IMG/VR virus record: IMGVR_UViG_3300024268_000010
Length of the DNA stretch: 64,000 bases
DNA from: a virus
Taxonomy: Duplodnaviria > Heunggongvirae > Uroviricota > Caudoviricetes
Strand: one strand, 5' to 3'
Shown here: piece after piece, positions 12,611-50,849 of the stretch
Layout of the letters: every line of letters starts with the position of its first letter
Position numbering within the stretch: the stretch's first letter is position 1
Program-made: the position numbers and the translations under genes
The notes under the pieces: model-generated
What the model was told of the DNA's origin: nothing
The model's database searches: none
Seen by the model: the letters and a program-made list of their open reading frames with translations, nothing else

Positions 12611-13252
12611 ATGGTGGATTTAATAGAATACATTGGAATTCCAGGAACCATAGCAGTTGGAATAATTGCCTTGTATGTAGCTATGCAACTTATTGGTGAA
12701 TTCGTAGAGCTTTGTGGCAAAGTCGTTCCAGAGTTCTTTAAGATTCGCAAATTCTTTGCACGTAAAAAGCAAGAAAAGGAAGACACAATAAAGACATTAA
12801 AAAAAGTTGAACAGTTATTGAATGAGGTCAACACACATTACAACGATGACAACATTGCACAACGTAACGAATGGATAAGAAACGTTGACAATAGAGCTGT
12901 TTCGTGCGGCAGTCAAATTACTGAAATTAAAAATACATTATCAGAAGTTACTAATGCATTAAACGTCAACACAAAAATGACAGAAGATATGTTTATTGAA
13001 AATAGTCGAGATAGAATAATTGATTTTGCTGAAAAAGCAGCCGACTATAACATCGTGTTATCAAAAGAACAATTTAGACGAATTAATAGAATACATGATG
13101 ATTACGAAAACTTTCTTAAAGAAAGAAACCGTCAGAATGGCGAAGTTGATACTGCATATGAGACAATACAAGATGGATATAAACATCGATTAAAAAATCA
13201 TTCATTTTTAGAAGACATAAAAGGAATAAGATTGGATAGCAATACAAAATGA
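12611..13252 (+). CDS. membrane-anchored hypothetical protein
   Basis: RBS aggaggtg; N-terminal hydrophobic helix (IGIPGTIAVGIIALYVAMQLIG). Confidence 0.45.
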   Translation: MVDLIEYIGIPGTIAVGIIALYVAMQLIGEFVELCGKVVPEFFKIRKFFARKKQEKEDTIKTLKKVEQLLNEVNTHYNDDNIAQRNEWIRNVDNRAVSCGSQITEIKNTLSEVTNALNVNTKMTEDMFIENSRDRIIDFAEKAADYNIVLSKEQFRRINRIHDDYENFLKERNRQNGEVDTAYETIQDGYKHRLKNHSFLEDIKGIRLDSNTK

Positions 13253-13272
13253 TTTGCAAAGGAGTAATAATT

Positions 13273-13587
13273 ATGGAAATTTTACATATTATTTTATCAA
13301 TCGTTACTGGATTAATCACAGCTATTCCGCTTATAATTCAACTAGTTAAAACAATTAAAGAATCTGCTAAATCTAAAAATTGGACAAGTCTTATGCATCT
13401 TGTGTTTCAATTGATGGTTGACGCAGAAAAGAACTTTGATACTGGTGCAGAGCGTAAACAATATGTAATTGATACTGTAAAGGCAATGGAAAAAACATTA
13501 AATTATGATATTGACGAAGATGTTATTAACGAAATGATTGACGCAATTATTCAAGCTACAAAACGCATAAACACAACAAGTAAATAA
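13273..13587 (+). CDS. holin-like small membrane protein (BhlA/UviB- or LLH-type; start at MEIL)
   Basis: RBS aaaggag placed 9 nt before the ATG at 13273; one N-terminal TM helix (ILHIILSIVTGLITAIPLIIQLV) followed by a charged tail. Confidence 0.4.
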   Translation: MEILHIILSIVTGLITAIPLIIQLVKTIKESAKSKNWTSLMHLVFQLMVDAEKNFDTGAERKQYVIDTVKAMEKTLNYDIDEDVINEMIDAIIQATKRINTTSK

Positions 13588-13602
13588 ATAATAGTTTAGG
13601 GA

Positions 13603-13635
13603 GTACAGATTAATTTCTGTACTCCCTATTTTTTT
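13603..13635 (+). terminator. rho-independent terminator
   Basis: gggagtacag-attaatttc-tgtactccc perfect stem followed by tattttttt. Confidence 0.6.
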
Positions 13636-13778
13636 CAATCTCAAAATATTCTCGCATAACCTTATTTACCCATGAGTTGATTGTTCTCCCGTCTTTGTTC
13701 GCTGCCATTTCAATTTGTAATTTTAAGCTTTGTGGAACTCTTAATGTTAATGTTTCAGTTGGCTCTTTTTTCTTCAAC
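13626..13778 (-). CDS. ribbon-helix-helix (Arc/MetJ/CopG-like) DNA-binding protein, 50 aa
   Basis: ORF below the track size cut-off: MLKKKEPTETLTLRVPQSLKLQIEMAANKDGRTINSWVNKVMREYFEIEKN; RBS aaggggg; has its own TTGACT-17-TATAAT promoter. Confidence 0.5.
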
Positions 13779-13799
13779 ATGTTAACCCCCTTCTAGCTT

Positions 13800-13828
13800 A
13801 TTATATCAATTTTGACTTTTATAGTCAA
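13800..13828 (-). promoter_or_regulatory. sigma-A-type promoter of the RHH gene, overlapping the TTGAC-N7-GTCAA inverted repeat
   Basis: On the - strand: TTGACT, 17-nt spacer, TATAAT, then the RBS. The inverted repeat is at 13812-13828. Confidence 0.45.
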
Positions 13829-13834
13829 AATATA

Positions 13835-13863
13835 TTGACGCACTTGTTCTCTTTTGATAGAAT
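13835..13863 (+). promoter_or_regulatory. sigma-A-type promoter of the tubR-like/tubZ-like operon
   Basis: TTGACG, 17-nt spacer, TAGAAT; divergent from the RHH promoter. Confidence 0.45.
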
Positions 13864-13872
13864 TAATATTGA

Positions 13873-13922
13873 AAATGAACACAAATGAGTGCAAATGAAA
13901 GAAGGGGAATTGAAATAAATGA
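13873..13922 (+). repeat. AAATGA iterons at 10-bp phasing (candidate TubR-binding centromere or autoregulation sites)
   Basis: AAATGA at 13873, 13883 and 13893 with exactly 10-bp spacing; a fourth copy at 13917 overlaps the start codon. Confidence 0.4.
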
Positions 13923-14170
13923 AACTGAATAGAATTCAATTAATTATGCTTTCTATTTTATCAAAAGTAGAAGCAAAAAGTCCTGCGACCAGTGTAAGCA
14001 TTGATGATATTATGAAATCCGTACCACTTGGGAAATCTTATTCAACCATTTATAGGGAAATTAATTCATTACATTATCAAAATTATATTTCTAATGGAGT
14101 GAAAGATGGAAAATTTAACACTTACTATATCAATCAAAATGGAATAGAAAAATTAAAGGAGATGTTATAA
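13919..14170 (+). CDS. small winged-helix DNA-binding protein (TubR-like by position)
   Basis: 83 aa with a wHTH-like pattern (IQLIMLSILSK...SIDDIMKSV...YSTIYREINSL); immediately upstream of the tubulin-like GTPase and overlapping its start. Confidence 0.4.
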   Translation: MKLNRIQLIMLSILSKVEAKSPATSVSIDDIMKSVPLGKSYSTIYREINSLHYQNYISNGVKDGKFNTYYINQNGIEKLKEML

Positions 14171-15189
14171 TGAGAGAGCAATTTGGAGTATTGGCACTCG
14201 GACAAGCGGGAGGAAATATAGGTATGGAGTTTGAGAAGCTAGGTTATTCTGTGGCATTCTTAAATACAAGTACAGAGGATCTTAACAGCATAAAAGGAAC
14301 ACATAAAATTGCAATTCCTAATGCAGAAGGTGCAGCTAAAGATAGAAAAAGAGTACTACAATTAGCTTCTGAACATATAGGTGATATCGTTGATAAAATT
14401 ACTAATATACTTCCACAAAAGTACATTATTTGTGTATTCAGTGCGGGTGGTGGAACAGGATCTGGTTTGAGCACTCCATTGATGACATACCTATCACAAG
14501 TACAAAAGGTGTGTATACCAGTCGTTGTTTTACCGGACGAGAAAATAGAATCTGCAAAAAGTTGTGAAAACACATGGAACTGCTGTGCAGAGTTAATGTC
14601 TATTCGAGGACTTGGTGCAACATTTTTACTCGACAACTCCAAATGCGATAAATTTGTTATTAATGGCAGATTTGTAAGAGAACTAGATGCTTTTATTAAT
14701 CTCAAAAATTTAAGTATGTACGGCAATATAGATATAGCAGAGAGAAAACAAATACTGTCTTGTTCTGGAGTTGCTGTTATCGGTAAACTTAGTAAATCAA
14801 AAAGCGCCGCTTCAGAGATCATTCAAAGCATGCATAACGGTATATATGCTGAAATTACTTCAAAAACAGCAATGTACTTAGGCATTTCTACTTCAAATCG
14901 TTCTTTGGAGATCAATTCTATTACCAAAGAATTTAATGGTGTGTATGATGTATTTTATGGGGTTTCTGAGGCCACAACACTAATAGCAGTTTCTGGATTA
15001 CAATTCCCATTAAAAAGACTAGAAATGTTTCGGAATAAATTTGAGCAAACTGTGCAAAATATAAATAACACAATTATCCAGCAACCTCCAACTATTCAAC
15101 CGTTACAAAGTCTATCGTTTGCACGGGAGGAGTTGAAGCCTACCACCCCAATTAACCCAAGAGATATTCTTTTGGGACTACTGAAATAA
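14170..15189 (+). CDS. tubZ: tubulin/FtsZ-superfamily GTPase (TubZ/PhuZ-like)
   Basis: T1 loop GVLALGQAGGNIG and the tubulin signature SAGGGTGSG; 339 aa. Confidence 0.7.
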   Translation: MREQFGVLALGQAGGNIGMEFEKLGYSVAFLNTSTEDLNSIKGTHKIAIPNAEGAAKDRKRVLQLASEHIGDIVDKITNILPQKYIICVFSAGGGTGSGLSTPLMTYLSQVQKVCIPVVVLPDEKIESAKSCENTWNCCAELMSIRGLGATFLLDNSKCDKFVINGRFVRELDAFINLKNLSMYGNIDIAERKQILSCSGVAVIGKLSKSKSAASEIIQSMHNGIYAEITSKTAMYLGISTSNRSLEINSITKEFNGVYDVFYGVSEATTLIAVSGLQFPLKRLEMFRNKFEQTVQNINNTIIQQPPTIQPLQSLSFAREELKPTTPINPRDILLGLLK

Positions 15190-15209
15190 GAGTCGCTTAT
15201 GCGGCTCTA

Positions 15210-15248
15210 TTTTTTTTACGAAAAAAAATAAGACTGCTAAACACAGTC
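15210..15248 (-). terminator. terminator for the recombinase gene (convergent with a weaker + strand hairpin at 15193-15220)
   Basis: On the - strand: aagactgtgtttagcagtctt followed by attttttttcg. Confidence 0.5.
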
Positions 15249-15251
15249 TTA

Positions 15252-17192
15252 TTATCCAACATGATTTGCCCATTTACATATCTGTAGTAGTTCCAAAAAA
15301 GATACATCAGAGGCACATCTATATCTGTCGATGTATTCTTCTGTGTAAAAATTGAACAACATATAAGCGTGATTTTTAGTACCATTGACATAATTCTTGT
15401 CACTATCTCTTGGAGTTCGAATAATTACGCCTGCACCTATCAATTGTTTGATAATTGGCATAAACTTATTATAATATCCCTCCTTATATCCCATTTTGGC
15501 AACCTCTCTGTGTAAATCTTGAAAATAAAACTCTTTCATTTCAAATGCCTTATCTATTATTGCTTTCTTATAGATGTCTACGGCGGTGAGGCTTATATCA
15601 ACATGACTTCTCATAACCTCATTTAAGTTGCCATGCATATACACATCAATTCCGGCACCATTCTTTACTACAATTCGATCTACAAGAATTTTCAGTTGTT
15701 TAACGGTCAAAGTATCACTAGCAAGAATTTCGTCAAAAACCAATAATGCCTTACTTAGACCTTGTTTTGCCTCCTTTGATGATGTTGATACCGATTCTTG
15801 CTCATCTATTTGTGATTTTAGATTTTGCAAATATGCCGATTTTTCATTAATAGCCTTTTGATAGGTTTGTTCTATAATATCTTTCATAGAGGGATTACTA
15901 ATTATGTCTTTAACCTTTTGCTCCATAAGACCCATCAGTTCTTGTGATGCCTTGCCATATTCTTTTTTTAGGGTTTCAAATGATTTAATAGATTTTTCAT
16001 TATATAATTGCTTGAGTTCACTCTCTATAATACCATCTAGATTTGCTATTGCGTCCTCCAAACTGTTTCTACATTGTCTTAAATATATTTTAATAAATTC
16101 TATTAGTTCATATTCATATACCCTGTTTTGTGAGCAGTAGTCTGATCCAAATGCATTATAAGTTGAGCATAAATAATATCTTCTCTTATTTATTCCACTT
16201 CTAGCAGTCATCAATTTTCCACATTCATTACAATATATCATGCCTGCAAATATATTGTTATTTTTTCTTATTCCTTTGTGTTGATGTTTTTCTGCCCTTT
16301 CCGTTTTTAATTTATTTGCCAGTACAAATGTTTCCTTGTCGATAATAGCCTCATGATTGTTTTCAAATTTAATATACTCTTCTTTGTCTCTTAAAATAGT
16401 TTTGCCATTAATGCCAACTGTTTTACATTTTCTTTGTACAAGAGTGCCAATATAAAATTCATTTGATATCATTCTTTTGACCACAGTGCTTGACCACATT
16501 GTAACAACTTGTCTTTTTGATGGTGGTATACCTTGTTCTTCTCTAATTCGCGCAGCCGCTTGTGTTGGTGTTGGAACTCCGTTGTCATTAAATATTTTTG
16601 CAATTGCGTTTGTGCCGTAGCCGTTGATATACATTTCGAATGCTTGTTTTACATATCCACAAGTTAGTTCGTCCACTTCAAAAGCGTGTTTCTTGCTAAA
16701 TATCTTTTTATATCCAAATGGTACTTCGGTAATCCATCTGCCTTCTTTTTGTTTTGAATGTATTACCGTTTTAATCTTCTTACTAATATCTTTTACGTAT
16801 CTTTCGTTGAACCATGTTTTAATACCTAGAATTGAATCTTCATCTTCCAAGTTGCTATAGTTGTCATTAATACTGATAACCTCTTTGTCTTCCATTGCCA
16901 AGTCTTCTAAGAGTATTTGCACACGAGGAGAGTTTCTTCCGAATCTTGAAAGATCTTTTACAATGACACCATCTATCGTGCCATCTTTTAAATCTTGCAA
17001 CATTCTATTAAATGCAGGTCTTTCCATTTTGTACCCTTTAAATCCGTCATCGATATAAAATTCTACTATATCATATTCATGCTCTTCTGCATACTGTTGT
17101 ATTATGCGGCGCTGATTTGCAATAGATAAAGATTCGTTATTTCCGTCCTCTTCGCTTAATCTCAAATATCCCGCCATTTTTCTTTTTATCAT
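15252..17192 (-). CDS. large serine recombinase (integrase/resolvase)
   Basis: N-terminal resolvase domain (YLRLSEEDG...S...DGVIVKDLSRFGRN), a recombinase domain, a Cys-rich zinc ribbon and a coiled coil; 646 aa; RBS aggaggt. Confidence 0.85.
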   Translation of the reverse strand: MIKRKMAGYLRLSEEDGNNESLSIANQRRIIQQYAEEHEYDIVEFYIDDGFKGYKMERPAFNRMLQDLKDGTIDGVIVKDLSRFGRNSPRVQILLEDLAMEDKEVISINDNYSNLEDEDSILGIKTWFNERYVKDISKKIKTVIHSKQKEGRWITEVPFGYKKIFSKKHAFEVDELTCGYVKQAFEMYINGYGTNAIAKIFNDNGVPTPTQAAARIREEQGIPPSKRQVVTMWSSTVVKRMISNEFYIGTLVQRKCKTVGINGKTILRDKEEYIKFENNHEAIIDKETFVLANKLKTERAEKHQHKGIRKNNNIFAGMIYCNECGKLMTARSGINKRRYYLCSTYNAFGSDYCSQNRVYEYELIEFIKIYLRQCRNSLEDAIANLDGIIESELKQLYNEKSIKSFETLKKEYGKASQELMGLMEQKVKDIISNPSMKDIIEQTYQKAINEKSAYLQNLKSQIDEQESVSTSSKEAKQGLSKALLVFDEILASDTLTVKQLKILVDRIVVKNGAGIDVYMHGNLNEVMRSHVDISLTAVDIYKKAIIDKAFEMKEFYFQDLHREVAKMGYKEGYYNKFMPIIKQLIGAGVIIRTPRDSDKNYVNGTKNHAYMLFNFYTEEYIDRYRCASDVSFLELLQICKWANHVG

Positions 17193-17270
17193 ATGCTTGT
17201 ACCTCCTATGTATTTTTCTTATACCTTAAATGTATTGTAACACGAGGTTTTCATATTGTAAATAAAATTA

Positions 17271-17438
17271 AGATTTATATTTATTTTTAATTAATTCTTT
17301 TATAATTTGCATAATATCTTTGTCACCATTTATAAATGTAACAAGCCTATCCTCTTGGTGCGTGTTATTATTTACTTCGTTTTTTTCTCTATGTATAAAG
17401 ATTGTTTTCTTTTCCATATAAATAACTCCAATCATTTT
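17271..17438 (-). CDS. small hypothetical protein (about 49-56 aa)
   Basis: RBS ggag; begins within the conserved AATGATTGG leader. Confidence 0.3.
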
Positions 17439-24846: not shown

Positions 24847-25760
24847 TATCCTATGGGCTTTTTATCCCATAGTTCTTATAGTTTCCTATAAGTTCAGCAT
24901 ACTTTTTCACCCTCGTTTAACGTTAGGTTTGATATTATCTCAGAATAGACTATATCTATCCGTGTTGGTGCCTCTTGGAGAGGTTATATTCTATATGCAA
25001 TAGTTTCACTCTCTATGCGTTGCCCCTGACTACACTTTTAAATGTAGCCTTCGGTTCGAGTTAACTTATTATAAATAATAATTTCCAGTATTTTTGTCAA
25101 ATTTAATTACGCCTTGTTTGCACAACTCATATGATAATTTTTGCAACTGATCATGAAGTTGTTGGTGTTCTGTGTTATCTCGACACAAATACAAATTTTC
25201 CAAGTCGTCATTACTCTTATCACCATCAATATGATGTACAATTTCTTCTGAAGTTAATTTTCGACCAATTTGTTGTTCTATTTTTTCACGATGGGTAAAT
25301 ACTTTTTTATCATAATCAAACCAATATTTATACCCCGCTATGTCTCGATGCAATTGTTTTGGTTTGTCAATAAGCCCCAACTGCAATCTTTTTCTCATAA
25401 CAACATAGTGTCCAAATCCAAGTCTTCCAATATTTAAATCTTCCCATATTTCTTTGTCCGTCCTGGTCATCCAATGTGTTTTTAAGTATTCAATATCATC
25501 GTCTGACCACGGATAAATCTGACCCATAATACTTTTTTCTGTTATACCAAGTCTTTGATATTTGTTATTAATCGATGCCAAAGAAACATTGAAGATTTTG
25601 CAAAATTCTTTCTTAGATTTAGTTTTGTAATTATCTAAAATATACTGATTTTCCTCTTGCGTCCAATCATGAGCCATAACAATCACCTCTCATTCATGGA
25701 ATATTATTATTCATAACTTAGTTTTCTCGCTTAATTCACCAATCATAATCTTATTTATTT
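24847..25760 (-). other. intervening sequence splitting the methyltransferase gene (candidate group I intron) with an embedded HNH ORF; boundaries approximate
   Basis: About 0.9 kb lies between motif VI/VII and motif VIII of a single MTase. The 24850-25068 segment has no ORF and is rich in hairpins (ccttcgg, cctcttggagagg, ctacac...gtgtag) plus a GATATAGTC S-element-like string. Confidence 0.45.
25069..25686 (-). CDS. HNH homing endonuclease
   Basis: HNH motif VHHIDGDKSNDDLENLYLC...H; 205 aa inside the intervening sequence. Confidence 0.7.
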   Translation of the reverse strand: MIVMAHDWTQEENQYILDNYKTKSKKEFCKIFNVSLASINNKYQRLGITEKSIMGQIYPWSDDDIEYLKTHWMTRTDKEIWEDLNIGRLGFGHYVVMRKRLQLGLIDKPKQLHRDIAGYKYWFDYDKKVFTHREKIEQQIGRKLTSEEIVHHIDGDKSNDDLENLYLCRDNTEHQQLHDQLQKLSYELCKQGVIKFDKNTGNYYL

Positions 25761-26852: not shown

Positions 26853-28781
26853 TTAATCTCCAATCATCATTAAAAATTCATTTTCTGTAATAATAGGTAT
26901 ATTTAACTCAATCGCTTTTTTATATTTACTGCTACCACTTTGTTCGTTTGTGATTAAATAATTTGTATTTTTACTGACTGATCCGGTTGTTTTTGCGCCG
27001 AGTTCAACAATTTTTGTGTTAATACTATCTCTTGTAAAATGGGTAAGTTTTCCTGTCACGCATAGTATTTTTCCACTGAATGGATTCTGTTTCGTCACAG
27101 TCTTCGTCGGCACAACAAACTTCATCTCCGACGCTAAATCAACGATTTCTGCCTCATTGTCAATGAAATACTTAGTAATATTTGCACACGTCTTATCACC
27201 AATATCCTGTAAGTCTGACCAATTGTATCCGTTCTTAAAAGCACTAAGTAATTGCTCAAAATCACCGTTAAATGCTTCCGCAATAGTTTTGGAAGCAGAT
27301 TTACCTACTCCGTCAATAGACAAAGCACATATAAAGTTTTCAAGTTTTACATCCCTGCTCTTTTCAATTGATTCAAGCAATTTATTTACTGACTTGTCTC
27401 CAAATCCATCAAGCTTAATCATATCTGCTTTGTTGACATCCAAATAGTAAATGTCAACAAACTTAGTCAGCCAACCAAGTTCGATAAACTTTTCAAGAGT
27501 CGCCTCGCTTAACCCTTCGATATCCATTGCGGGCTTGGATACAAAGAACTTCAATCTACCCAATAATTTGCCTAAGCAGTTGATGTTTTTGCACATAAGT
27601 ACTTCGGACTCATTCTCTTTCACGACTTCAGTTTTACCACCACAAACTGGGCATTGCTTAGGATAAGTTATAGGAGAATCGCCATCCTGGAGGCAAGAAT
27701 CAATCTGAGGAATGATTTGGTTGGCTTTATACACTTTCACGGTACAATTATTCGTGAGTCCTAACTTCTTAATAATAGAAATGTTATGGAGGGAAGCTTT
27801 ACTAACATCAGTACCGTCAATATTAACTGTTTCAAAAATTGCCGTAGGAGTAAGAGTGTTTGTTTTGCCCATTGTCCATTCAATATCAAGCAGTTTCGTT
27901 TCGTAAAGTTCGTCGTAGAATTTATAAGCTAATCCTCCGCAGAAGTGGTGATCCGTTCTACCCATTAATTCATATTCAACAGGGTTATCTAACTTAAACA
28001 CCAGTCCGTCAATTGGATAACTATAATCTTCTGCAACCTGTTTTAGGCACATTGTATCCTCAACAACATGATATAAACCTCTTAAAAGCGGAACGACAGT
28101 AAAGGAAAGATTTCTGAGCCAAGCCAATACTGCACGCAGACTATTTGACTTAGGGTTTCCAATCACATCCCACGCCACAAATGTCAATTTTCTCTTGGCG
28201 CATTCGTTGCTATCAAGAAGTCTAATGCTTCCAGAAGCGAAGTTTCTAGCATTCTTATATTCGCTTTCAAATTCCTTAAAGTCGTCAAGTTTACAAATGA
28301 TTTCGCCGTCAACTACAAGCCTATCAGTATACGGAATTTTCTTTGGAATCGAAGGAATAACCATTGCATTGTGAGTAATATCCTCACCAATCTCACCATC
28401 CCCTCGTGTTTCTGCTCTTACCAGCCTACCATTTTCATACAAAAGCGAACATGTTAAACCGTCCATCTTTAACATAGCAATCCAATCTTTGTCTCCAACA
28501 AAAGATTTGATCTCTTCAATATCCTTTGTCTTGTCCAGAGATAGCATAGAATGGTTGTGCTTAACCTTCGGCAGTTCATTAACGACAGTATAGTTTACTT
28601 TTTGAGTTGGTGAGTCAGGCATAGTATATCCCCATGTGTGTTCCAATTCGACAAGTTCAAAATACTTATCGTCCCATTCTTTATCAGAGATTTCTGGAAT
28701 ACCTTTGTCATACAATTCTGTATGTCTATTGAGTTCTTTAGTAAGAAATTTAATGCGTGCATATGCGTCAAGTTTTTCCAT
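26853..28781 (-). CDS. ligA: NAD+-dependent DNA ligase
   Basis: KxDG adenylation motif (LKMDGLTCSL), zinc finger CPVCG, C-terminal BRCT-like region; start taken at MEKLD with the RBS aaggag. Confidence 0.9.
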   Translation of the reverse strand: MEKLDAYARIKFLTKELNRHTELYDKGIPEISDKEWDDKYFELVELEHTWGYTMPDSPTQKVNYTVVNELPKVKHNHSMLSLDKTKDIEEIKSFVGDKDWIAMLKMDGLTCSLLYENGRLVRAETRGDGEIGEDITHNAMVIPSIPKKIPYTDRLVVDGEIICKLDDFKEFESEYKNARNFASGSIRLLDSNECAKRKLTFVAWDVIGNPKSNSLRAVLAWLRNLSFTVVPLLRGLYHVVEDTMCLKQVAEDYSYPIDGLVFKLDNPVEYELMGRTDHHFCGGLAYKFYDELYETKLLDIEWTMGKTNTLTPTAIFETVNIDGTDVSKASLHNISIIKKLGLTNNCTVKVYKANQIIPQIDSCLQDGDSPITYPKQCPVCGGKTEVVKENESEVLMCKNINCLGKLLGRLKFFVSKPAMDIEGLSEATLEKFIELGWLTKFVDIYYLDVNKADMIKLDGFGDKSVNKLLESIEKSRDVKLENFICALSIDGVGKSASKTIAEAFNGDFEQLLSAFKNGYNWSDLQDIGDKTCANITKYFIDNEAEIVDLASEMKFVVPTKTVTKQNPFSGKILCVTGKLTHFTRDSINTKIVELGAKTTGSVSKNTNYLITNEQSGSSKYKKAIELNIPIITENEFLMMIGD

Positions 28782-28924
28782 TTTCAAGCTCCTTAATAAA
28801 ATCTGCAATTAAAACAACAACTTCTGTAAAATCTGCAGCCAAATTATCAAAACCAAGTCGTTTAAAATAATCTGCTTTTTCTTGATATTTTTCTTTTTGT
28901 TCTTTCAAATACTCTGGCGTCATA

Positions 28925-29443
28925 TTATTCTCCAATCACATTAATCTGACACATTTTCATGACTTCGAGTGCGTGTCTATGACTCTCTGGAGTTACACAA
29001 GCACAGCAACTTGCGTCTACAGTGATGTTTGCGTCTGGGAACTGTGCTTTAAGCATAATCGCGTTTGATACTACGCAGATGCTTGTACAAGTACCCACGA
29101 GCTCAATGTTTTCAAAATCGCCCTCATACTCCCAATAACGATAACCGAAGGTGGTTTTGTTAATATGGCGACATTCTGGGTGCGACAATTCATCCACAAC
29201 AAGCCAGCCATATGTTCCGTGTACACAATGTTCAATCGGAAGGTGTTTGCCCTCGTTAGTTTCTAAATAATTAAATTTATGCGTGTCTCTTGTAAAAATT
29301 ACTTCATCACCACGAGCTAAATATTCATCAATCTTCTTTTTGACATTTGGAATGATTGCTTGTGCGTATGGATTTGCAAGTGTACCTGTCAAGAAATCAT
29401 TCTGCATATCTATTACAATTAAAGTTTTCATATTATTCTCCAA
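28925..29443 (-). CDS. isochorismatase-family hydrolase, PncA-like nicotinamidase
   Basis: IVIDMQNDF (Asp), a conserved Lys, and catalytic Cys in GTCTSICV; 172 aa. Confidence 0.6.
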   Translation of the reverse strand: MENNMKTLIVIDMQNDFLTGTLANPYAQAIIPNVKKKIDEYLARGDEVIFTRDTHKFNYLETNEGKHLPIEHCVHGTYGWLVVDELSHPECRHINKTTFGYRYWEYEGDFENIELVGTCTSICVVSNAIMLKAQFPDANITVDASCCACVTPESHRHALEVMKMCQINVIGE

Positions 29444-29675
29444 TCTTGATATTTTTTATCTGCACCTCAGTAAGTTCAGTAACCTTAAACGGGTCTCTCT
29501 GGTCTTCTCGTTCAACTTCTTTTATAACAAAAGTTATGTCTTGATGACTAACGTTCTTTATATTATTTGCGCTTAAATAATTGCAAATGATTTCCATAAC
29601 TTGCACTGGCGTTAGACTTATAGTTGCATTTAATTTCATATCAAATACCTTCCTTGATTCTATAATCAACTGCAT
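29433..29675 (-). CDS. hypothetical protein
   Basis: 80 aa ORF between the PncA-like and pncB genes. Confidence 0.4.
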   Translation of the reverse strand: MQLIIESRKVFDMKLNATISLTPVQVMEIICNYLSANNIKNVSHQDITFVIKEVEREDQRDPFKVTELTEVQIKNIKIGE

Positions 29676-30834
29676 TTTTCAAATATGTGATGTAGTCATT
29701 GTTTTGGCACATGGTTTTGCCGGGCACATCACTCAATTTTGCAACTGGATGTCCATTAACATATTGCAATTTAATAACAATATTGATAGGGTTGACATTA
29801 GTATCGTTACTTAAATAAGTACCAATCCCAAAACTTACATTGATTCTGTCTTTAAGTACATCATAAATACTCTGTGCCTTGTCAAAATCCAGACCGTCGC
29901 TAAACAGTAATGTTTTCGTTTTAGGATCGATTCCAAGTTTTTCGTAATGAGCAATCAATTTTTCTCCCCACTCAATCGGATCACCACTATCATGTCTTAC
30001 ACCAGTATAACAAGTTGCTTGAAGTCTATTAAAGTCCATAAGAAACAAGTCTGTGCCAAGTGTGTCAGTAAGTGCAGTGCCGAGATCTCCTTGATATTCA
30101 TCGAACCATTCATCCATTGCCATCTTATTTGTATATGCAAGAGTTACACCAGGAATACCTTGAAACATTTGTACATATTCGTGAGCATATGTACCAATAG
30201 GCTTGCACCCATACTTCATTGCAAGATATACATTAGAAGTACCAACACACTTGCCCGTTAAAAGAAGACGTTCGACCGCAAAATCTTGGAACTCTCTACT
30301 TAATCTTCTACGGCAACCAAATTCCGCAAAATTAAATGTATATTTTCCTGTGTTAATATTATGCATTTTATGAAAGAGTTTTATAACCGCAGAATCCAGA
30401 AGTTCATCATAATCATATTTCATTCTAAAATATACTTCATTCACAATTTCAAGAAGATAGATTTCAAACTGCATTACGGAAAACAGTGGTCCATCAACTT
30501 GAAGATTGAGCGTGCCGTCTGGGTTGCCGTGACAAGTGACATATCTACGAAGAGGGCGCCAGAGACGAAGGAATTCCACATAGTCAGATTTAATAAACCG
30601 AAGTGAATTTAGATAATCAAGTTCTTCGTCGGTAAATGTAAGTGTACAAAAGTGGTCAATCTGTGCATTGATTTCATCAACCATTTCAGGAGTAAATTCA
30701 ACATCTTTATTACGACATTTGAAAAGATAAACACCATTTAAATTAGTATGTTTATGAAACATTACCTGTCCCATTGTAAACTTATATAAATCTGTATCCG
30801 TCAAATGCGTAATAATAGGGCTAAGTTTCATCAT
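29641..30834 (-). CDS. pncB: nicotinate phosphoribosyltransferase
   Basis: Strong similarity to E. coli PncB along its length: DTDLYKFTM, GVRHDSGDPIEWGEKLIAHYEKLGIDPKTKTLLFSD, NIVIKLQYVNGHPVAKLSDVPGKTMC. Confidence 0.85.
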   Translation of the reverse strand: MMKLSPIITHLTDTDLYKFTMGQVMFHKHTNLNGVYLFKCRNKDVEFTPEMVDEINAQIDHFCTLTFTDEELDYLNSLRFIKSDYVEFLRLWRPLRRYVTCHGNPDGTLNLQVDGPLFSVMQFEIYLLEIVNEVYFRMKYDYDELLDSAVIKLFHKMHNINTGKYTFNFAEFGCRRRLSREFQDFAVERLLLTGKCVGTSNVYLAMKYGCKPIGTYAHEYVQMFQGIPGVTLAYTNKMAMDEWFDEYQGDLGTALTDTLGTDLFLMDFNRLQATCYTGVRHDSGDPIEWGEKLIAHYEKLGIDPKTKTLLFSDGLDFDKAQSIYDVLKDRINVSFGIGTYLSNDTNVNPINIVIKLQYVNGHPVAKLSDVPGKTMCQNNDYITYLKNAVDYRIKEGI

Positions 30835-33422: not shown

Positions 33423-34004
33423 TTATTCTGCGTCAATTCCATATGTGGCACACAGTTTTGCTAAGCCACCATTATATCCACTGCCAATTGCTTTGAATTG
33501 CCACTGACTATTGTGCTTATAAATTTCTCCAACGACCAATGCTGTTTGTGTGGAGAAATCCTCACTCAAATCATAGCGCAAAATTTCTTCGTTGTTATTC
33601 TCGTCAACAAGTCGAATATAGGCATTAGAAATCATTCCGAAGTTTTGAAGTCTATGCTCTGCGTCATAAATTGTAATAACTGCAACCAATCGTTCATAAC
33701 CATCAGGAATTTTTGACAATTCGATTTTGATCACCTCGTCGTCTCCGTCACCTTCGCCAGTACGATTATCTCCGGTGTGAATCACACTTTTGCTCGGATG
33801 TGTTAAATTACCATAAAAGACAAAATCATTATCATTGCCTACCTTGCCATTGTGCTTAAGCATGAAAATTGACGCGTCCAAATCAAAATTTGCTTCGCCG
33901 TCATAGTGATTAATATCCCAACCCAAACCAATAAGAACCTTATCAAGAGAGGGGTTGCCTTTTGTAAGGCTCACCCTCTGACCTTTGTTTAAACTTACAG
34001 ACAT
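33423..34004 (-). CDS. TerD-domain protein (paralogue 1)
   Basis: TerD hallmarks: GLGWD, the acidic Ca-binding GDNRTGEGDGDDE loop, FGMI. Confidence 0.85.
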   Translation of the reverse strand: MSVSLNKGQRVSLTKGNPSLDKVLIGLGWDINHYDGEANFDLDASIFMLKHNGKVGNDNDFVFYGNLTHPSKSVIHTGDNRTGEGDGDDEVIKIELSKIPDGYERLVAVITIYDAEHRLQNFGMISNAYIRLVDENNNEEILRYDLSEDFSTQTALVVGEIYKHNSQWQFKAIGSGYNGGLAKLCATYGIDAE

Positions 34005-34014
34005 TTTATTCTCC

Positions 34015-34587
34015 TTATCTATATTTTCTTGTCATCGAGGAAATACTAGTATCAGTCGTACCTTGACCGACAGCGTTGAATTTCCATTCATTATTATGAT
34101 TGTATACTTCTGCAAAAATCATTGCTGTTTTACCATCATAATTATCTGATAGATTGTACTTACAAATTTCTTTGTGTGTAGAAGCATCAACCAAACGAAT
34201 GAATGCATTCTTAATCATGCCAAAATCCTGTTTTCTTGATTCACAAGCATAAATATTAACGACAAACACAATCTTTTTTACTTTGGACGGCATATCGGAA
34301 AGGCTGACAATAATCTGTTCGTCATCCCCATCTCCATCTCCCGTGAGATTGTCTCCAGTATGACGAACCTTACCATCCAGAGAATAAGTGTGTCCGTAAT
34401 ACACACAATCTATCAACTTTTCATTTTCATCAAGAATAATTGCCGAAGCGTCACAGTCAATGTTAGGCTGATAACCGAAGATTCCTCTTTTTACAGCATC
34501 CCAACCAAGACCAACGACGACTTTGCTCAGCCCATTCACTTCTTTAGACAAACTGATTTTCTGACCCTTTGATAAACTAATAGACAT
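34015..34587 (-). CDS. TerD-domain protein (paralogue 2)
   Basis: GLGWDAV, GDNLTGDGDGDDE, FGMIKNAFIRL. Confidence 0.85.
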   Translation of the reverse strand: MSISLSKGQKISLSKEVNGLSKVVVGLGWDAVKRGIFGYQPNIDCDASAIILDENEKLIDCVYYGHTYSLDGKVRHTGDNLTGDGDGDDEQIIVSLSDMPSKVKKIVFVVNIYACESRKQDFGMIKNAFIRLVDASTHKEICKYNLSDNYDGKTAMIFAEVYNHNNEWKFNAVGQGTTDTSISSMTRKYR

Positions 34588-34603
34588 ATTTACTTCCTCC
34601 CTA

Positions 34604-35182
34604 TTAAATATTCAAACCAAAATTACGACCAATGGTGCTCAAGCCACCTGCATAACCAGAACCAACAGCAGCAAACTTCCATTCACCATTATGTCTGTAC
34701 AGTTCGCCAGCAACAATGCCAGTTTCCAGCGAAAAATCTTCATTCAACTCATACTTAAACAGTTCTTCGTTTGTGGTAATGTTATATGCTCGAATATAAG
34801 AATTGTCCACCATGCCAAAATTCTGAAGTCTTGTTTCTGCGTCATAAATCGTTGCTGCAAAACTAATCTTTGAGATATTGGTTGGCACTTTAGACAAATC
34901 AACCTTAATGGTTTCATCATCACCGTCACCAACACCACTTCTGTTGTCACCAGAATAATCGACTGCACCACTAGGATGTGTGGGCTGATTATAGAAAATG
35001 AAATCGTGTTCGCCGGTCACTTTGCCTGACGCATCGGTAAGAAATACCGATACATCCAAATCAAATTCATTGTTGCCATCATACTTATTGGTGTCCCAAC
35101 CAAGCCCAAATGCAACATTAACCAAGCCGCTGTTTCCTTTCGTCAGATCAATCTTCTGACCTTTTACCAAGCTAATAGACAT
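34604..35182 (-). CDS. TerD-domain protein (paralogue 3)
   Basis: GLGWD, GDNRSGVGDGDDE, FGMVDNSYIR. Confidence 0.85.
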   Translation of the reverse strand: MSISLVKGQKIDLTKGNSGLVNVAFGLGWDTNKYDGNNEFDLDVSVFLTDASGKVTGEHDFIFYNQPTHPSGAVDYSGDNRSGVGDGDDETIKVDLSKVPTNISKISFAATIYDAETRLQNFGMVDNSYIRAYNITTNEELFKYELNEDFSLETGIVAGELYRHNGEWKFAAVGSGYAGGLSTIGRNFGLNI

Positions 35183-38957: not shown

Positions 38958-39836
38958 TTAATGAGCGTTTAAATCTGCTTCGTGAAGCAAATCTATCTGT
39001 TTCTTCAAGCACGGAGGTAGATTGTTGTAATACTTGGTGTTCATAAAAGGATCCATATGTGTGCTAATAAGCCAAGCAATATACGGAGTAACATATTGCA
39101 TACCATACGACACCCATGCTCCTACACATTGATGCTGATAATAATGTGCAGTTTCACAAGGATTGCCTTTATTATCTACGAATGCCTTGACATATGGTTT
39201 ACCAACATCATGATAGAATGCCGCAAACCCAATATCACTAGAATACACACCAATCTTATTAACAATATATTTGTTTGCCTCCAAACAATGGTCAAATACA
39301 TTTAATGTATGGTGAGGATTATCATGGGAAATCTGCATACTCGAACAAGTGGAATTTGCATAGTCATATGCATTAAAATCTTTTGGTTTAACAATCTGAA
39401 TTTCGTCAATACCTTCATCATAATAAGGGGCATGGAATCGTTTAAGCATTCGGTCAATAACTTCCTTGCCAACAGTACGTTCTCTCTCAGAGTCCCTTTC
39501 AATACAAACCTCAATAGGTGCCCAAGCAATATGACACTCAATCTTAGCAAACTTTGGACACGCTCCAATAATACCCATTCTATCCTTTCGGGTGACATTG
39601 GTTGCGTCATACAACACATCATGACCGTCATTAAGCGCCACGATAGCTCTATTTTGCATCAAAGAGAACACATCAACTGGATTTCCCTGTACGCTTTCAT
39701 CACCGTAAAGTTCTTTACGAATTTCGTCCGAACTTAAATGGACAGCATTTGAATTGTGTTGAATGTAATTTTTTGCATATGTGGTCTTTCCAGAACCCGG
39801 AATTCCACACAAAATTATCAGTTTTGGTCTATTCAT
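38958..39836 (-). CDS. P-loop polynucleotide-kinase-like domain fused to an HD phosphohydrolase domain
   Basis: Walker A (ILCGIPGSGKTTYAKNY) at the N-terminus; HD motifs at the C-terminus (HDNPHHTLNVFDH, FYHDVGKPY). Confidence 0.55.
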   Translation of the reverse strand: MNRPKLIILCGIPGSGKTTYAKNYIQHNSNAVHLSSDEIRKELYGDESVQGNPVDVFSLMQNRAIVALNDGHDVLYDATNVTRKDRMGIIGACPKFAKIECHIAWAPIEVCIERDSERERTVGKEVIDRMLKRFHAPYYDEGIDEIQIVKPKDFNAYDYANSTCSSMQISHDNPHHTLNVFDHCLEANKYIVNKIGVYSSDIGFAAFYHDVGKPYVKAFVDNKGNPCETAHYYQHQCVGAWVSYGMQYVTPYIAWLISTHMDPFMNTKYYNNLPPCLKKQIDLLHEADLNAH

Positions 39837-50845: not shown

Positions 50846-50849
50846 TCTT

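What the first reader, a model, noticed from the sequence alone, without database searches (positions are those of the whole stretch)
13600..15250. Type III (tubulin-based) partition cassette: RHH gene, inverted-repeat operator, 10-bp-phased AAATGA iterons, TubR-like wHTH gene and TubZ/PhuZ-like GTPase
The 339-aa protein carries the tubulin/FtsZ signatures (GQAGGNIG and GGGTGSG) and is preceded by an 83-aa winged-helix gene, which is the TubR-TubZ arrangement. The upstream 140 bp is a dense divergent control region. It has a TTGACT-17-TATAAT promoter for a 50-aa ribbon-helix-helix gene on the - strand, a TTGACG-17-TAGAAT promoter for tubR/tubZ, a TTGAC-N7-GTCAA inverted repeat overlapping the RHH -35, and three AAATGA boxes exactly 10 bp apart (a fourth on the start codon). 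These boxes are a candidate tubC-like centromere or autoregulatory site. With the adjacent large serine recombinase, this argues for a plasmid-prophage or segregating-replicon lifestyle, as in Clostridium botulinum phage c-st, or for a PhuZ-like intracellular positioning function.
Basis: partly seen in the sequence, partly recalled or inferred. Interest (0 to 1): 0.7.

Follow-up and report, generated by a model that had tools for sequence, protein, structure and literature searches.

The report
Phage TubR–TubZ DNA partition cassette
A large, uncultured phage seen mostly in gut and fecal metagenomes carries a real tubulin-based (TubR–TubZ) DNA-segregation cassette like that of Clostridium botulinum phage c-st, but a small ribbon-helix-helix gene always sits where the usual third protein, TubY, would be; this is a conserved variant of a known system, not a new kind.

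Summary
The 339-aa protein passes Pfam Tubulin and TubZ_C_3, and its best solved relative is c-st TubZ (2.4e-23). The 83-aa protein matches c-st TubR by sequence. Its confident model (pLDDT 92.9) has the two solved TubR structures as top hits. tubR and tubZ overlap (TAATG) and lie between terminators. The three AAATGA boxes at 10-bp spacing are unique in the 64 kb and sit between the predicted −10 and the tubR ribosome site.

The cassette belongs to a clade with contigs commonly 155–175 kb. All 56 sequences with enough flank have a divergent RHH gene upstream of tubR. A site-specific recombinase, of varying type, follows tubZ in every locus inspected that reaches far enough. No TubY homolog was found. 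Repeat sequences differ between subclades and track TubR's recognition helix. A natural swap (TubR 89%, RHH 28% identical) points to TubR binding the 5′UTR sites and RHH binding the TTTTGACT repeats.

DNA binding, centromere function and lifestyle are all untested. The integrase argues for integration rather than a plasmid state, and no host junction was seen. Verdict: a new variant of type III partition, of moderate interest.

The parts
13597..13628 (.). Bidirectional intrinsic terminator (13-bp stem). It ends the upstream holin-like gene on the + strand and the RHH gene on the - strand, and forms the left boundary of the cassette.
   Evidence: terminator scan, both strands; I3, 13/13 complementary.
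13610..13780 (-). Monocistronic ribbon-helix-helix (Arc/CopG/HicB-type) gene, 56 aa, divergent from tubR. It is a conserved companion of tubRZ in this clade.
   Evidence: Pfam HicB 1.4e-5 (25.3 bits, cut-off 21). phrog_582 Arc-like repressor 2.1e-8. A divergent RHH gene is present in 56 of 56 sequences with at least 330 nt upstream of tubR.
13800..13828 (-). Predicted promoter of the RHH gene, TTGACT-17-TATAAT with an extended TG. The leader is only about 13 nt and starts at the ribosome-binding site.
   Evidence: 11/12 matches. Position conserved in relatives. Function is inferred.
13809..13831 (.). Inverted repeat ATTTTGACT-N5-AGTCAAAAT over the RHH -35 box and spacer, ending 4 bp before the tubRZ -35 box. 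Candidate RHH operator.
   Evidence: I13, 9/9. Unique in the window. Left arm degenerate in close relatives. TTTTGACT recurs as two direct repeats in L040, whose RHH is related to the window's. Binding is inferred.
13835..13863 (+). Predicted tubR-tubZ promoter, TTGACG-17-TAGAAT with an extended TG.
   Evidence: 10/12. A TTGAC -35 box and a TAT..T-type -10 box sit at the same relative positions in most relatives. Function is inferred.
13873..13898 (+). Three AAATGA boxes at exact 10-bp spacing in the predicted 5'UTR, about +4 to +29 from the predicted start. As 10-mers they read GAAAATGA / ACACAAATGA / GTGCAAATGA. Candidate TubR operator and compact tubC-like nucleation site.
   Evidence: unique; 0.08 expected by chance. 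The same position holds 10-11-bp-phased repeats with an (A/T/G)TGCA core in other subclades. No RNA structure. Binding is inferred.
13900..13908 (+). Ribosome-binding site AGAAGGGGA, 10 nt before the tubR ATG.
   Evidence: Sequence. GAAGGGGAG-type sites are conserved in relatives.
13919..14170 (+). tubR: 83-aa winged-helix DNA-binding adaptor (centromere-binding protein). Its stop overlaps the tubZ start, which suggests translational coupling.
   Evidence: PDB 6tey TubR 2.5e-5. AF2 model pLDDT 92.9. Foldseek top hits are TubR of pBM400 (4asn, TM 0.84) and c-st TubR (6tey, TM 0.74). c-st TubR hits the tubR gene of nearly all relatives.
14170..15189 (+). tubZ: 339-aa tubulin/FtsZ-superfamily GTPase of the c-st TubZ type. 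It has the T1 loop GQAGGNIG, the G-box GGGTGSG, a T7-like GNIDxAERKQ motif, a Pro/Gln-rich linker and an invariant C-terminal peptide NPRDILL(G/S)LL.
   Evidence: Pfam Tubulin 5.5e-12 and TubZ_C_3 4.3e-7, both above cut-off. PDB c-st TubZ 4xcq/3v3t 2.4e-23 over residues 8-292. Invariant columns. C-terminal tails.
15189..15208 (+). Intrinsic terminator of the tubRZ operon, the right boundary of the cassette.
   Evidence: Nucleotide similarity with L002 ends at 15218.
15252..17192 (-). Neighbouring large serine recombinase (integrase type), 646 aa. It is not part of the operon, but a site-specific recombinase fills this slot in every relative inspected that reaches far enough. The cassette 15219-17413 is a swap hotspot.
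   Evidence: Pfam Resolvase + Recombinase + Zn_ribbon_recom. phrog_95 integrase 4.9e-95. Identity 22-74% does not track TubZ identity. Replaced by an unrelated LSR in L002 and by tyrosine integrases in L032 and L042.

Best explanation
This is a type III (TubZ/TubR) DNA-segregation cassette of the Clostridium botulinum phage c-st lineage. It is carried by an uncultured, low-GC phage of roughly 165 kb that probably infects a Firmicutes host.

**Proposed mechanism**
1. tubR and tubZ are transcribed as one translationally coupled operon from a sigma-A-type promoter at 13835-13863.
2. TubR, a winged-helix dimer, binds the 10-bp-phased boxes at 13873-13898 just downstream of the transcription start. 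This represses its own operon. It also nucleates a TubR-DNA complex, with spreading as reported for c-st TubR.
3. TubZ polymerises with GTP into dynamic filaments.
4. TubZ's flexible tail, ending in the invariant NPRDILLGLL peptide, engages the TubR-DNA complex, so that filament dynamics move copies of the phage genome apart.
5. The divergent 56-aa RHH protein binds the TTTTGACT repeats that overlap its own promoter and abut the tubRZ -35 box. It serves as the auxiliary regulator in place of the MerR-like TubY.
6. The cargo is the non-integrated phage genome, as a plasmid-like prophage or carrier state. This last step is the weakest.

**Shown here:** family membership of TubZ, TubR and RHH; operon anatomy; uniqueness and phasing of the boxes; conservation of the RHH-tubR-tubZ triad; absence of TubY.

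**Inferred:** every binding event, promoter activity, polymerisation, and the life-cycle stage. I put about 0.8 on the molecular mechanism and about 0.45 on the plasmid-prophage stage.
For: **TubZ**
- Pfam Tubulin (46.8 bits, cut-off 33) and TubZ_C_3 (30.3 bits, cut-off 27).
- Best PDB hits are c-st TubZ 4xcq/3v3t at 2.4e-23 over residues 8-292. PhuZ, phiKZ TubZ and FtsZ score 4e-3 or worse.
- D188 and E191 of GNIDxAERKQ are invariant across the clade. They align with D and E in c-st GVVDEDE.

**TubR**
- 6tey TubR at 2.5e-5.
- AF2 model pLDDT 92.9 with winged-helix topology.
- Foldseek ranks 1 and 2 are the two solved TubRs.

**Anatomy**
- TAATG overlap of tubR and tubZ, ribosome sites, flanking terminators and promoters.

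**Boxes**
- Unique phased triple, with no RNA structure.
- Other subclades carry GTGCTTGCA or GTGAT repeats at 11/13/11/22-bp spacing over the -35 and -10 boxes, plus an (A/T/G)TGCA core at -40 and/or -30.
- TubR's recognition helix tracks the repeat type. L031 has only 58% TubR identity but keeps KSYSTLYR and the boxes.

**Natural swap**
- L030 and L040 share 89% of TubR but 28% of RHH. Their intergenic DNA differs except for GTATTGCA in the 5'UTR.
- L040 and the window share a related RHH and TTTTGACT repeats.

**Triad and precedents**
- A divergent RHH gene accompanies tubR in 56 of 56 sequences.
- The published c-st system has tubC upstream of tubR with (A/T)GAA and TTGAC iterons. TubR covers the promoter and spreads along the DNA (PMC6009700).
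- The nearest cultured TubZ relative (32% identity) lies on pCP_P201. This is a circular 93-kb C. perfringens phage-plasmid that also encodes an integrase.
Against: - No binding, polymerisation or stability data exist for this cassette.
- Only three boxes (about 26 bp) are present, against about 130-350 bp in the tubC sites described in PMC6009700. The third box varies in close relatives: AAGCGA, AAGTGA, AAATAA.
- TubY, reported as necessary for stable plasmid maintenance in known type III systems (PMC7762940), is absent from the window and all loci.
- An integrase-type recombinase is always adjacent, which suggests chromosomal integration. An integrated prophage needs no partition system.
- No isolate genome carries the element. 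The one genome-collection hit is a 165.6-kb contig in a fecal MAG, so the extrachromosomal state is unverified.
- The TubZ C-terminal domain model was of low confidence.
- The assignment of sites to TubR or RHH rests on a few natural variants.
Confidence: 0.65

Rival explanations
1. The machinery is the same, but it works at a different life-cycle stage. The phage integrates through its adjacent integrase. TubR-TubZ then acts after infection or induction, positioning or separating replicating phage genomes. This would resemble the actin-like AlpC of the integrated Corynebacterium prophage CGP3, or more loosely PhuZ. It would not partition a plasmid prophage.
For: - An integrase-type large serine recombinase sits next to tubZ in every locus inspected that reaches far enough, and is exchanged for other serine or tyrosine integrases. 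That pattern is typical of integration modules.
- CGP3 is an integrated prophage with an actin-like protein needed for efficient viral DNA replication (PMC4446434, abstract).
- PMC8026635 notes that partition-type proteins alone do not prove a plasmid lifestyle.
- The phage encodes a large replication and nucleotide-metabolism set.
Against: - None of more than 30 loci that extend past the recombinase shows host DNA. Truncated contigs are collinear with full-length siblings up to their ends.
- The closest characterised homologs (c-st) and the closest cultured relative (pCP_P201) are extrachromosomal prophages, and pCP_P201 also has an integrase.
- PhuZ similarity is weak and limited to the N-terminal domain.
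Confidence: 0.3
2. The three AAATGA boxes are only a transcriptional operator, for TubR or even for the RHH protein. The true centromere, if there is one, lies elsewhere in the roughly 165-kb genome or is formed by non-specific spreading.
For: - The site is small and lies just downstream of the predicted transcription start, a classic roadblock position.
- The third box is not conserved among close relatives.
- RHH proteins commonly bind short tandem repeats (established knowledge of Arc/MetJ/omega/ParG).
- Both TubR and RHH change between subclades, so covariation cannot fully separate them.
Against: - In all described type III systems the autoregulatory TubR sites upstream of tubR are themselves the centromere (PMC6009700, PMC7762940).
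- No second cluster of the motif exists in the 64-kb window.
- The L030/L040 swap keeps the 5'UTR element with TubR, not with RHH.
Confidence: 0.25
3. The RHH gene is an unrelated neighbour, for example a phage transcription factor or an orphan antitoxin-like repressor, that merely shares an intergenic region with tubRZ.
For: - Its best Pfam hit is HicB.
- It is monocistronic with its own promoter and terminator.
- It has no counterpart at the c-st, C. botulinum or C. perfringens tubRZ loci.
Against: - It is present, divergent and within roughly 130-160 bp of tubR in 56 of 56 sequences, even where RHH identity falls to about 28-33% and the flanking genes differ.
- The promoters are back to back, with candidate sites 4 bp from the tubRZ -35 box.
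- No toxin partner is adjacent.
Confidence: 0.15

Closest known systems
tubC-TubR-TubZ(-TubY) type III partition system of Clostridium botulinum prophage c-st (CST190/CST189/CST188; PDB 3v3t, 4xcq, 6tey)
   Same: - Closest sequence relatives of both proteins: TubZ 2.4e-23 and TubR 2.5e-5 against the PDB.
- Same order: a small winged-helix gene directly upstream of tubZ.
- Carried by a large phage of a low-GC Firmicute.
- Short repeats in the tubR control region. c-st uses (A/T)GAA and TTGAC (PMC6009700), and TGAA-type and TTGAC motifs also occur here.
   Different: - Only about 28% (TubZ) and 30-43% (TubR) identity.
- No TubY; a divergent 56-aa RHH gene instead.
- The intergenic region is 138 bp with about 26 bp of phased boxes downstream of the promoter, against a split 352-bp tubC upstream of the promoter.
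- The TubZ tail ends in hydrophobic NPRDILLGLL rather than the acidic c-st tail.
- An integrase is adjacent.
Bacillus plasmid type III systems (pBtoxis, pXO1-like pBc10987, pBM400, pBsph): tubC-tubR-tubZ with a divergent upstream tubY
   Same: - The TubR fold: 4asn (pBM400) is the top structural match, TM 0.84.
- A divergently transcribed small regulator upstream of tubRZ whose target lies at the tubRZ promoter. TubY binds the -35/-10 region (PMC7762940).
- TubR sites double as operator and centromere.
   Different: - The upstream regulator here is an RHH protein with no MerR HTH, coiled coil or amphipathic membrane tail.
- Bacillus TubZ structures did not appear among the PDB sequence hits at E <= 1.
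- The replicon is a phage, not a virulence plasmid.
pCP_P201, a 93-kb circular phage-plasmid of Clostridium perfringens (NZ_CP143272.1)
   Same: - Nearest cultured TubZ relative (31.8% identity over 80% of the query).
- A TubR-family gene sits directly upstream (7.8e-10).
- It has a full set of virion genes plus a site-specific integrase on an extrachromosomal circular replicon.
   Different: - A 143-aa HTH gene lies upstream on the same strand, not a divergent RHH.
- Smaller genome; its integrase is about 29 kb from tubRZ on the circular record.
PhuZ / phiKZ TubZ spindle of nucleus-forming jumbo phages
   Same: A phage-encoded tubulin-superfamily GTPase. phrog_4733 'tubulin PhuZ' matches the N-terminal GTPase domain at 2.6e-15.
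   Different: - Only weak whole-protein similarity (PDB E about 4e-3).
- By my own knowledge, not checked here, PhuZ systems have no TubR adaptor or DNA site and work in lytic infection.
- The C-terminal domain here is the TubZ_C_3 type.
AlpA-AlpC of the integrated Corynebacterium glutamicum prophage CGP3
   Same: A partition-like cytoskeletal system in an integrating prophage, used for viral DNA replication or positioning (PMC4446434). It is a functional precedent for the rival reading.
   Different: It is actin-based, not tubulin-based, and has no sequence relationship.

Membership tests
Type III (TubZRC) partition system | Motor: a tubulin/FtsZ-superfamily GTPase with the G-box (S/A/G)GGTG(S/A/T)G, a T1 loop and acidic T7 residues | tested here: met
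   Pfam PF00091 at 46.8 bits (cut-off 33). GQAGGNIG, GGGTGSG and GNIDxAERKQ are present. D188 and E191 are invariant in 26 homologs and align with D and E of c-st TubZ.
Type III (TubZRC) partition system | TubZ-type C-terminal domain followed by a flexible C-terminal tail | tested here: met
   Pfam TubZ_C_3 PF22340 at 30.3 bits (cut-off 27), residues 193-277. Full-length alignment to c-st TubZ. Pro/Gln-rich linker plus invariant NPRDILL(G/S)LL. The AF2 model of this part was of low confidence.
Type III (TubZRC) partition system | Adaptor: a small winged-helix TubR encoded immediately upstream of tubZ in the same operon | tested here: met
   6tey at 2.5e-5. Model pLDDT 92.9. Foldseek ranks 1-2 are TubR 4asn and 6tey. 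TAATG overlap with tubZ.
Type III (TubZRC) partition system | tubC: several direct or inverted repeats upstream of tubR that TubR binds, overlapping the operon's promoter | tested here: inconclusive
   Three 10-bp-phased boxes, unique in the window, lie between the -10 box and the ribosome site. Positionally equivalent 10-11-bp repeats occur in other subclades and track the TubR helix. The site is small and binding was not measured.
Type III (TubZRC) partition system | TubY: a MerR-like HTH, coiled-coil and amphipathic-tail protein encoded nearby (PMC7762940) | tested here: not met
   c-st TubY gives no tblastn hit at E <= 0.01 in the window or in loci L001-L055. phmmer against all window ORFs gives a best E of 0.38. 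Only 64 kb of a roughly 165-kb genome was searched, and only with the c-st sequence.
Type III (TubZRC) partition system | GTP-dependent polymerisation or treadmilling, and stabilisation of a low-copy extrachromosomal replicon | not testable with these tools
   This needs biochemistry and a plasmid-stability assay. The replicon state is unknown, and no host junctions were seen.
PhuZ (jumbo-phage spindle tubulin) | Whole-protein similarity to PhuZ | tested here: not met
   PhuZ PDB hits score only E 4e-3 to 5e-3 over about 100 residues. The PHROG PhuZ match covers only residues 3-142.
PhuZ (jumbo-phage spindle tubulin) | An acidic C-terminal tail and no DNA adaptor gene. These are PhuZ features by my own knowledge, not checked against a source here. 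| tested here: not met
   The tail here is hydrophobic. A TubR gene is translationally coupled upstream.
FtsZ | FtsZ C-terminal domain (PF12327) and close similarity to cellular FtsZ | tested here: not met
   No FtsZ_C hit appears in Pfam. FtsZ chains score E 0.025-0.046.
Ribbon-helix-helix (Arc/CopG/HicB-type) DNA-binding proteins | An N-terminal beta-strand followed by two helices in about 45-55 residues, matching RHH profiles | tested here: met
   PF05534 HicB at 25.3 bits (cut-off 21). phrog_582 Arc-like repressor at 2.1e-8. A conserved (T/S)x(T/S/Y)xR strand appears in the clade alignment. No structure was predicted.
Large serine recombinase (phage integrase type), neighbouring gene | Resolvase catalytic domain, Recombinase domain and zinc-ribbon domain in a protein of more than 450 aa | tested here: met
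   PF00239, PF07508 and PF13408 are all above cut-off. phrog_95 integrase at 4.9e-95.

The most novel reading that the evidence does not exclude
The invariant RHH-tubR-tubZ triad, without TubY and always beside an exchangeable integrase, could be a distinct form of type III system. The RHH protein would be a second DNA-binding component, acting as co-adaptor or as a switch. The system would let a roughly 165-kb gut phage alternate between an integrated state and an actively partitioned episomal state, or would use tubulin-driven segregation during replication of an integrating phage. No role of that kind is reported for TubZ/TubR in the papers I found.
Probability: 0.2. Interest if true: 0.65.

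Novelty: new variant of a known kind. Interest (0 to 1): 0.42.

Why it matters
Tubulin-based (type III) DNA segregation has been studied in a few Bacillus virulence plasmids and in one phage, c-st. This finding suggests that a diverged version is common in a clade of large, uncultured phages from gut and fecal metagenomes. There are 478 TubZ homologs, and many lie on contigs of 155-175 kb.

This version replaces TubY, reported as necessary in the model systems, with a 56-aa RHH protein. It also compresses the control and centromere region to 138 bp.

If the cassette works as proposed, it gives a minimal and easily synthesised type III system of about 1.6 kb. That system could be used to ask what TubY actually contributes and how few TubR sites suffice. 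It would also mark these phages as candidates for a plasmid-like or dual lifestyle, which matters for how gut phages persist.

It is not a new principle. The core is a recognisable member of a known family.

Tried and rejected
1. **Near-identity DNA search against phages:** no match for 13000-16000. TubZ tblastn in the phage collection found only Bacillus phage G at 29%. No cultured phage relative therefore carries this cassette.
2. **IMG/VR scan with the single protein:** found nothing. It worked only with the alignment.
3. **Inversion of the recombinase gene in L002:** rejected. There is no nucleotide similarity in either orientation, so it is a cassette replacement.
4. **Integration junctions:** loci extending past the recombinase all continue into phage genes. 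Contigs that end at or in the recombinase cassette are collinear with their full-length siblings. No attL/attR was found, which does not prove there is none.
5. **RNA element in the 5'UTR:** rejected for the window's group (-1.5 kcal/mol, z = 0.17). The hairpins in other groups are simply their palindromic operators.
6. **The 'fourth AAATGA box':** rejected as out of phase and explained by start-codon context.
7. **TubZ structure prediction:** the N-terminal domain is confident but the C-terminal half has pLDDT below 50. I did not use it for fold search and relied on sequence profiles instead.
8. **Assigning an RHH operator by covariation across all groups:** inconclusive. The recurring GTCAA/TTGAC inverted repeats are largely the two back-to-back -35 boxes. 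Only the window/L040 comparison was informative.
9. **Host identification:** the only genome-collection hit is a 165.6-kb contig in a 'Paludibacteraceae' fecal MAG. I regard it as a mis-binned phage. Strong Shine-Dalgarno sites and TTGACA/TATAAT promoters, together with a DNA polymerase closest to a [Clostridium] innocuum phage (46.9%), point to Firmicutes.


Full report
**Observation**

The region reads as the first-stage reader described.
- A 56-aa gene lies on the - strand at 13610-13780.
- An 83-aa gene lies on the + strand at 13919-14170.
- A 339-aa gene lies at 14170-15189, and its ATG overlaps the preceding TAA as TAATG.

The 339-aa protein carries GQAGGNIG and GGGTGSG.

The consensus scan found TTGACT-17-TATAAT on the - strand (13828..13800) and TTGACG-17-TAGAAT on the + strand (13835..13863). 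Both have an extended TG. Promoter-like sites as a class are no more frequent here than in shuffles (10 against 10.6). Their weight therefore comes from score, placement and conservation, not from number.

Terminators at 13597-13628 (bidirectional) and 15189-15208 bracket the unit (4 found, 1.0 expected).

The inverted repeat is ATTTTGACT-N5-AGTCAAAAT and is unique in the window.

AAATGA occurs at 13873, 13883 and 13893. The hexamer is not enriched in the window overall (101 found, 114 expected). The phased triple occurs once, against 0.08 expected even with two mismatches allowed.

There are three corrections.
- The RHH protein is 56 aa, not 50.
- The 'fourth box' at 13917 is 24 bp away, out of phase, and is just AA-ATG-A.
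- The left arm of the inverted repeat is degenerate in close relatives, and its right arm is the RHH -35 box.

**What the proteins are**

*TubZ*
- The 339-aa protein passes Pfam's curated cut-offs for Tubulin (46.8 bits against 33) and for TubZ_C_3 (30.3 bits against 27).
- Against all PDB sequences, the best matches are the two entries for c-st TubZ: 4xcq at 2.4e-23 and 3v3t at 9.9e-23, aligned over residues 8-292.
- PhuZ, phiKZ TubZ and FtsZ score 4e-3 or worse.
- The PHROG 'tubulin PhuZ' model matches only the N-terminal GTPase domain.
- GNIDxAERKQ is invariant across 26 homologs. Its D188 and E191 align with D and E of c-st TubZ. This is the position expected for the T7 catalytic loop (inference from the superfamily).

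*TubR*
- The 83-aa protein matches c-st TubR (6tey, 2.5e-5).
- With a 32-sequence alignment it gives a confident model: pLDDT 92.9, three helices, a beta-wing and a C-terminal helix.
- The first and second Foldseek hits in the PDB are TubR of pBM400 (4asn, TM 0.84, rmsd 1.7) and c-st TubR (6tey, TM 0.74).

*RHH*
- The - strand protein is an RHH protein: HicB PF05534 at 25.3 bits against 21, and phrog_582 Arc-like repressor at 2.1e-8.

**Context**

The window is part of a large, low-GC phage of about 35% GC.
- Tail and lysis genes lie on the + strand up to 13587.
- A long - strand block follows. It encodes dUTPase, NrdG/NrdD, NAD-dependent ligase, a PolIII-alpha-type polymerase, helicase and RecJ.
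- There are seven tRNAs.
- It has no near-identical relative among deposited phages.
- Its polymerase is closest to that of a [Clostridium] innocuum phage (46.9%).
- TubZ has 478 homologs in metagenomes, 70-95% identical among the best 120, on contigs commonly 155-175 kb long.
- IMG/VR contigs of 162-173 kb also carry it.
- TubZ sits at varying offsets in these contigs. That is what a circular or circularly permuted genome of about 165 kb would give (inference).

**The conserved module**

I collected 63 related loci.
- tubR directly precedes tubZ in every locus that includes the sequence just upstream of tubZ.
- A profile of the clade's RHH proteins finds a divergent RHH gene upstream of tubR in 56 of 56 sequences with at least 330 nt of upstream sequence. 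That count includes the window and some near-duplicates.
- RHH identity to the window falls to about 33%.
- The same profile finds nothing at the tubRZ loci of c-st, a C. botulinum plasmid or C. perfringens pCP_P201, whereas the TubR profile finds their small upstream genes.
- c-st TubY (CST188, a MerR-type protein) has no homolog in the window or in loci L001-L055. phmmer against all window ORFs gives a best E of 0.38.
- In published systems TubY is encoded near tubRZ, upstream in Bacillus and downstream in C. botulinum. It binds the tubRZ -35/-10 region, activates transcription and is reported as necessary for stable maintenance (PMC7762940).
- The C. botulinum plasmid locus L058 indeed has a divergent MerR gene upstream.

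In this clade, a 56-aa RHH protein occupies the place and orientation that TubY has in Bacillus systems.

**The DNA sites**

Across the clade the intergenic architecture is fixed, in this order:
1. RHH start
2. its ribosome site
3. its -10 box
4. back-to-back -35 boxes
5. the tubRZ -10 box
6. a 5'UTR of about 35-50 nt with repeats
7. a GAAGGGGAG-type ribosome site
8. the tubR ATG

The repeat sequence changes with the subclade.
- The window's group has GAAAATGA / ACACAAATGA / GTGCAAATGA.
- Other groups have five or six GTGCTTGCA or GTGAT(G/A)TCA repeats at 11, 13, 11 and 22 bp spanning the -35 and -10 boxes.
- Still others have palindromes such as GTTTGCAGTGCAAAC.
- An (A/T/G)TGCA core recurs at -40 and/or -30 from the tubR ATG in most groups. 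Boxes 2 and 3 of the window sit at that conserved 10-bp-phased position.

TubR's predicted recognition helix (residues 41-53) co-varies with the repeat type.
- The window's group has KSYST(I/L)YR.
- Other groups have SYTTLHR, SYTTLLR, S(D/N)TTLHR or QS(T/I)TTMHR.
- L031 has only 58% TubR identity but retains both KSYSTLYR and the boxes.

A natural swap is the most informative comparison.
- L030 and L040 share 89% of TubR but only 28% of RHH.
- Their intergenic regions differ almost everywhere except GTATTGCA in the 5'UTR.
- L040's RHH is closer to the window's, and L040 has two direct TTTTGACT repeats beside the RHH promoter. These match the arms of the window's inverted repeat.

This supports pairing TubR with the 5'UTR sites and RHH with the TTTTGACT repeats, but it rests on few cases.

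The window's 5'UTR has no RNA structure (-1.5 kcal/mol, z = 0.17), so a DNA-level role is the better reading.

For comparison, c-st tubC uses (A/T)GAA and TTGAC iterons over 352 bp. c-st TubR covers the predicted promoter and spreads beyond its iterons (PMC6009700). TGAA-type and TTGAC motifs also occur here, but motifs this short carry little weight in AT-rich DNA.

**Mechanism proposed**

- TubR dimers bind the phased boxes just downstream of the transcription start. This represses the operon and nucleates a TubR-DNA complex.
- TubZ polymerises with GTP.
- Its tail has a Pro/Gln-rich linker and an invariant NPRDILL(G/S)LL end. This differs from the acidic c-st tail. The tail couples filaments to the complex, and filament dynamics separate genome copies.
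- RHH autoregulates and modulates the abutting tubRZ promoter.

All binding and dynamics are inferred from homology with c-st and the Bacillus systems.

**Lifestyle**

This is the weak point.
- The neighbouring 646-aa recombinase has the complete integrase-type architecture.
- The slot after tubZ is filled in every locus inspected that reaches far enough, but by proteins only 22-74% identical. That identity does not track TubZ identity.
- The recombinase lies in the opposite orientation in L002 and L009.
- L002 carries an unrelated gene in that slot.
- L032 and L042 carry tyrosine integrases with a GIY-YIG endonuclease.

On the other side, three points hold.
- None of the loci that extend beyond the recombinase shows host DNA.
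- Truncated contigs are collinear with full-length siblings up to their ends.
- The nearest cultured TubZ relative sits on pCP_P201. This is a circular 93-kb C. perfringens replicon with terminase, portal, capsid and tail genes and its own integrase. TubRZ together with a recombinase on an extrachromosomal prophage therefore has a precedent.

An integrating phage that uses the system during replication is a serious rival. The actin-like AlpC of prophage CGP3 is a precedent for that (PMC4446434). PMC8026635 makes the general point that partition genes alone do not establish a plasmid lifestyle.

**Comparison and verdict**

- The core features of type III membership are met: TubZ with its specific C-terminal domain, and a coupled TubR.
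- The tubC feature is inconclusive.
- The TubY feature was tested and not met.
- PhuZ and FtsZ membership are not met.

I file the finding as a new variant of a known kind: a c-st-lineage TubRZ cassette with an RHH protein in place of TubY, a compact control region and an adjacent exchangeable integrase. It is widespread in a clade of roughly 165-kb phages seen mostly in gut and fecal metagenomes.

Interest is moderate at 0.42. A specialist would not be surprised by a phage TubZ. The TubY-less RHH triad and its abundance in uncultured phages are worth a bench test.

Noticed in passing
window 15219-17413; L002 6053-8275; L032 3588-5462; L042 3070-4895: The recombinase slot downstream of tubZ is a swap hotspot. 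The window's large serine recombinase is replaced by an unrelated LSR on the opposite strand in L002, although TubZ there is 95% identical. L032 and L042 carry a tyrosine integrase plus a GIY-YIG endonuclease instead. Recombinase identity (22-74%) does not track TubZ identity.
   Followed up: partly
loci L010, L012, L014, L019, L020, L026, L031, L037, L040, L043, L045, L050, L062 (contig ends): Many independent metagenomic contigs end within about 0.2-1.8 kb after tubZ, at or inside the recombinase cassette. Where a full-length sibling exists, they are collinear with it to the last base. The breaks may reflect strain heterogeneity of the cassette or alternative att junctions.
   Followed up: partly
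window 42327-43499 (-): A 390-aa adenylosuccinate-synthetase-family protein: Pfam PF00709 at 4.7e-32, and phrog_1211 '2-aminooxy adenylosuccinate synthetase' at 2.4e-59. If it is PurZ-like, the phage might replace adenine with 2-aminoadenine. I did not test for DatZ or MazZ partners.
   Followed up: partly
window 40656-42311 (-) and 26853-30834 (-): A PARP catalytic-domain protein (PF00644, 1.9e-22) lies next to a Macro-domain protein (PF01661, just above the cut-off). Elsewhere there are a nicotinamide phosphoribosyltransferase and an NAD-dependent DNA ligase. Together these look like an NAD+/ADP-ribosylation gene set in a phage.
   Followed up: no
window 38958-39836, 45933-47438, 52001-53608 (-) and tRNAs 49606-51551 (-): An apparent RNA-repair set sits beside a cluster of seven tRNA genes. 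The set comprises a polynucleotide kinase, an RNA ligase and a 535-aa protein matching phrog_850 ('RNA-binding protein', possibly RtcB-like by my recollection).
   Followed up: no
window 33423-35182 (-): Three tandem paralogous genes of about 190 aa, all matching phrog_5698 (unknown function) at E 1e-45 to 1e-51.
   Followed up: no
window 15040-15189 (TubZ residues about 290-339): The TubZ C-terminus has a Pro/Gln-rich linker and an invariant terminal peptide NPRDILL(G/S)LL across the clade. It is unlike the acidic c-st tail and loosely resembles the conserved C-terminal peptide of FtsZ (my recollection, not tested). The partner could be TubR or a host protein.
   Followed up: partly
L001 4957-5418; L059 19703-20530; window 25069-25686 and 45015-45923 (-): Homing-endonuclease genes (GIY-YIG, HNH) are scattered through these genomes. 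One is inserted between the lysis genes and the RHH gene in L001.
   Followed up: no
L008 (JBGVEC010000203.1, 165,582 bp): The only hit in the species-representative genome collection is a whole-phage-sized contig binned into a 'Paludibacteraceae' fecal MAG. Strong Shine-Dalgarno sites, sigma-A-type promoters and the polymerase's nearest relative (a [Clostridium] innocuum phage) suggest a Firmicutes host and a binning error.
   Followed up: partly
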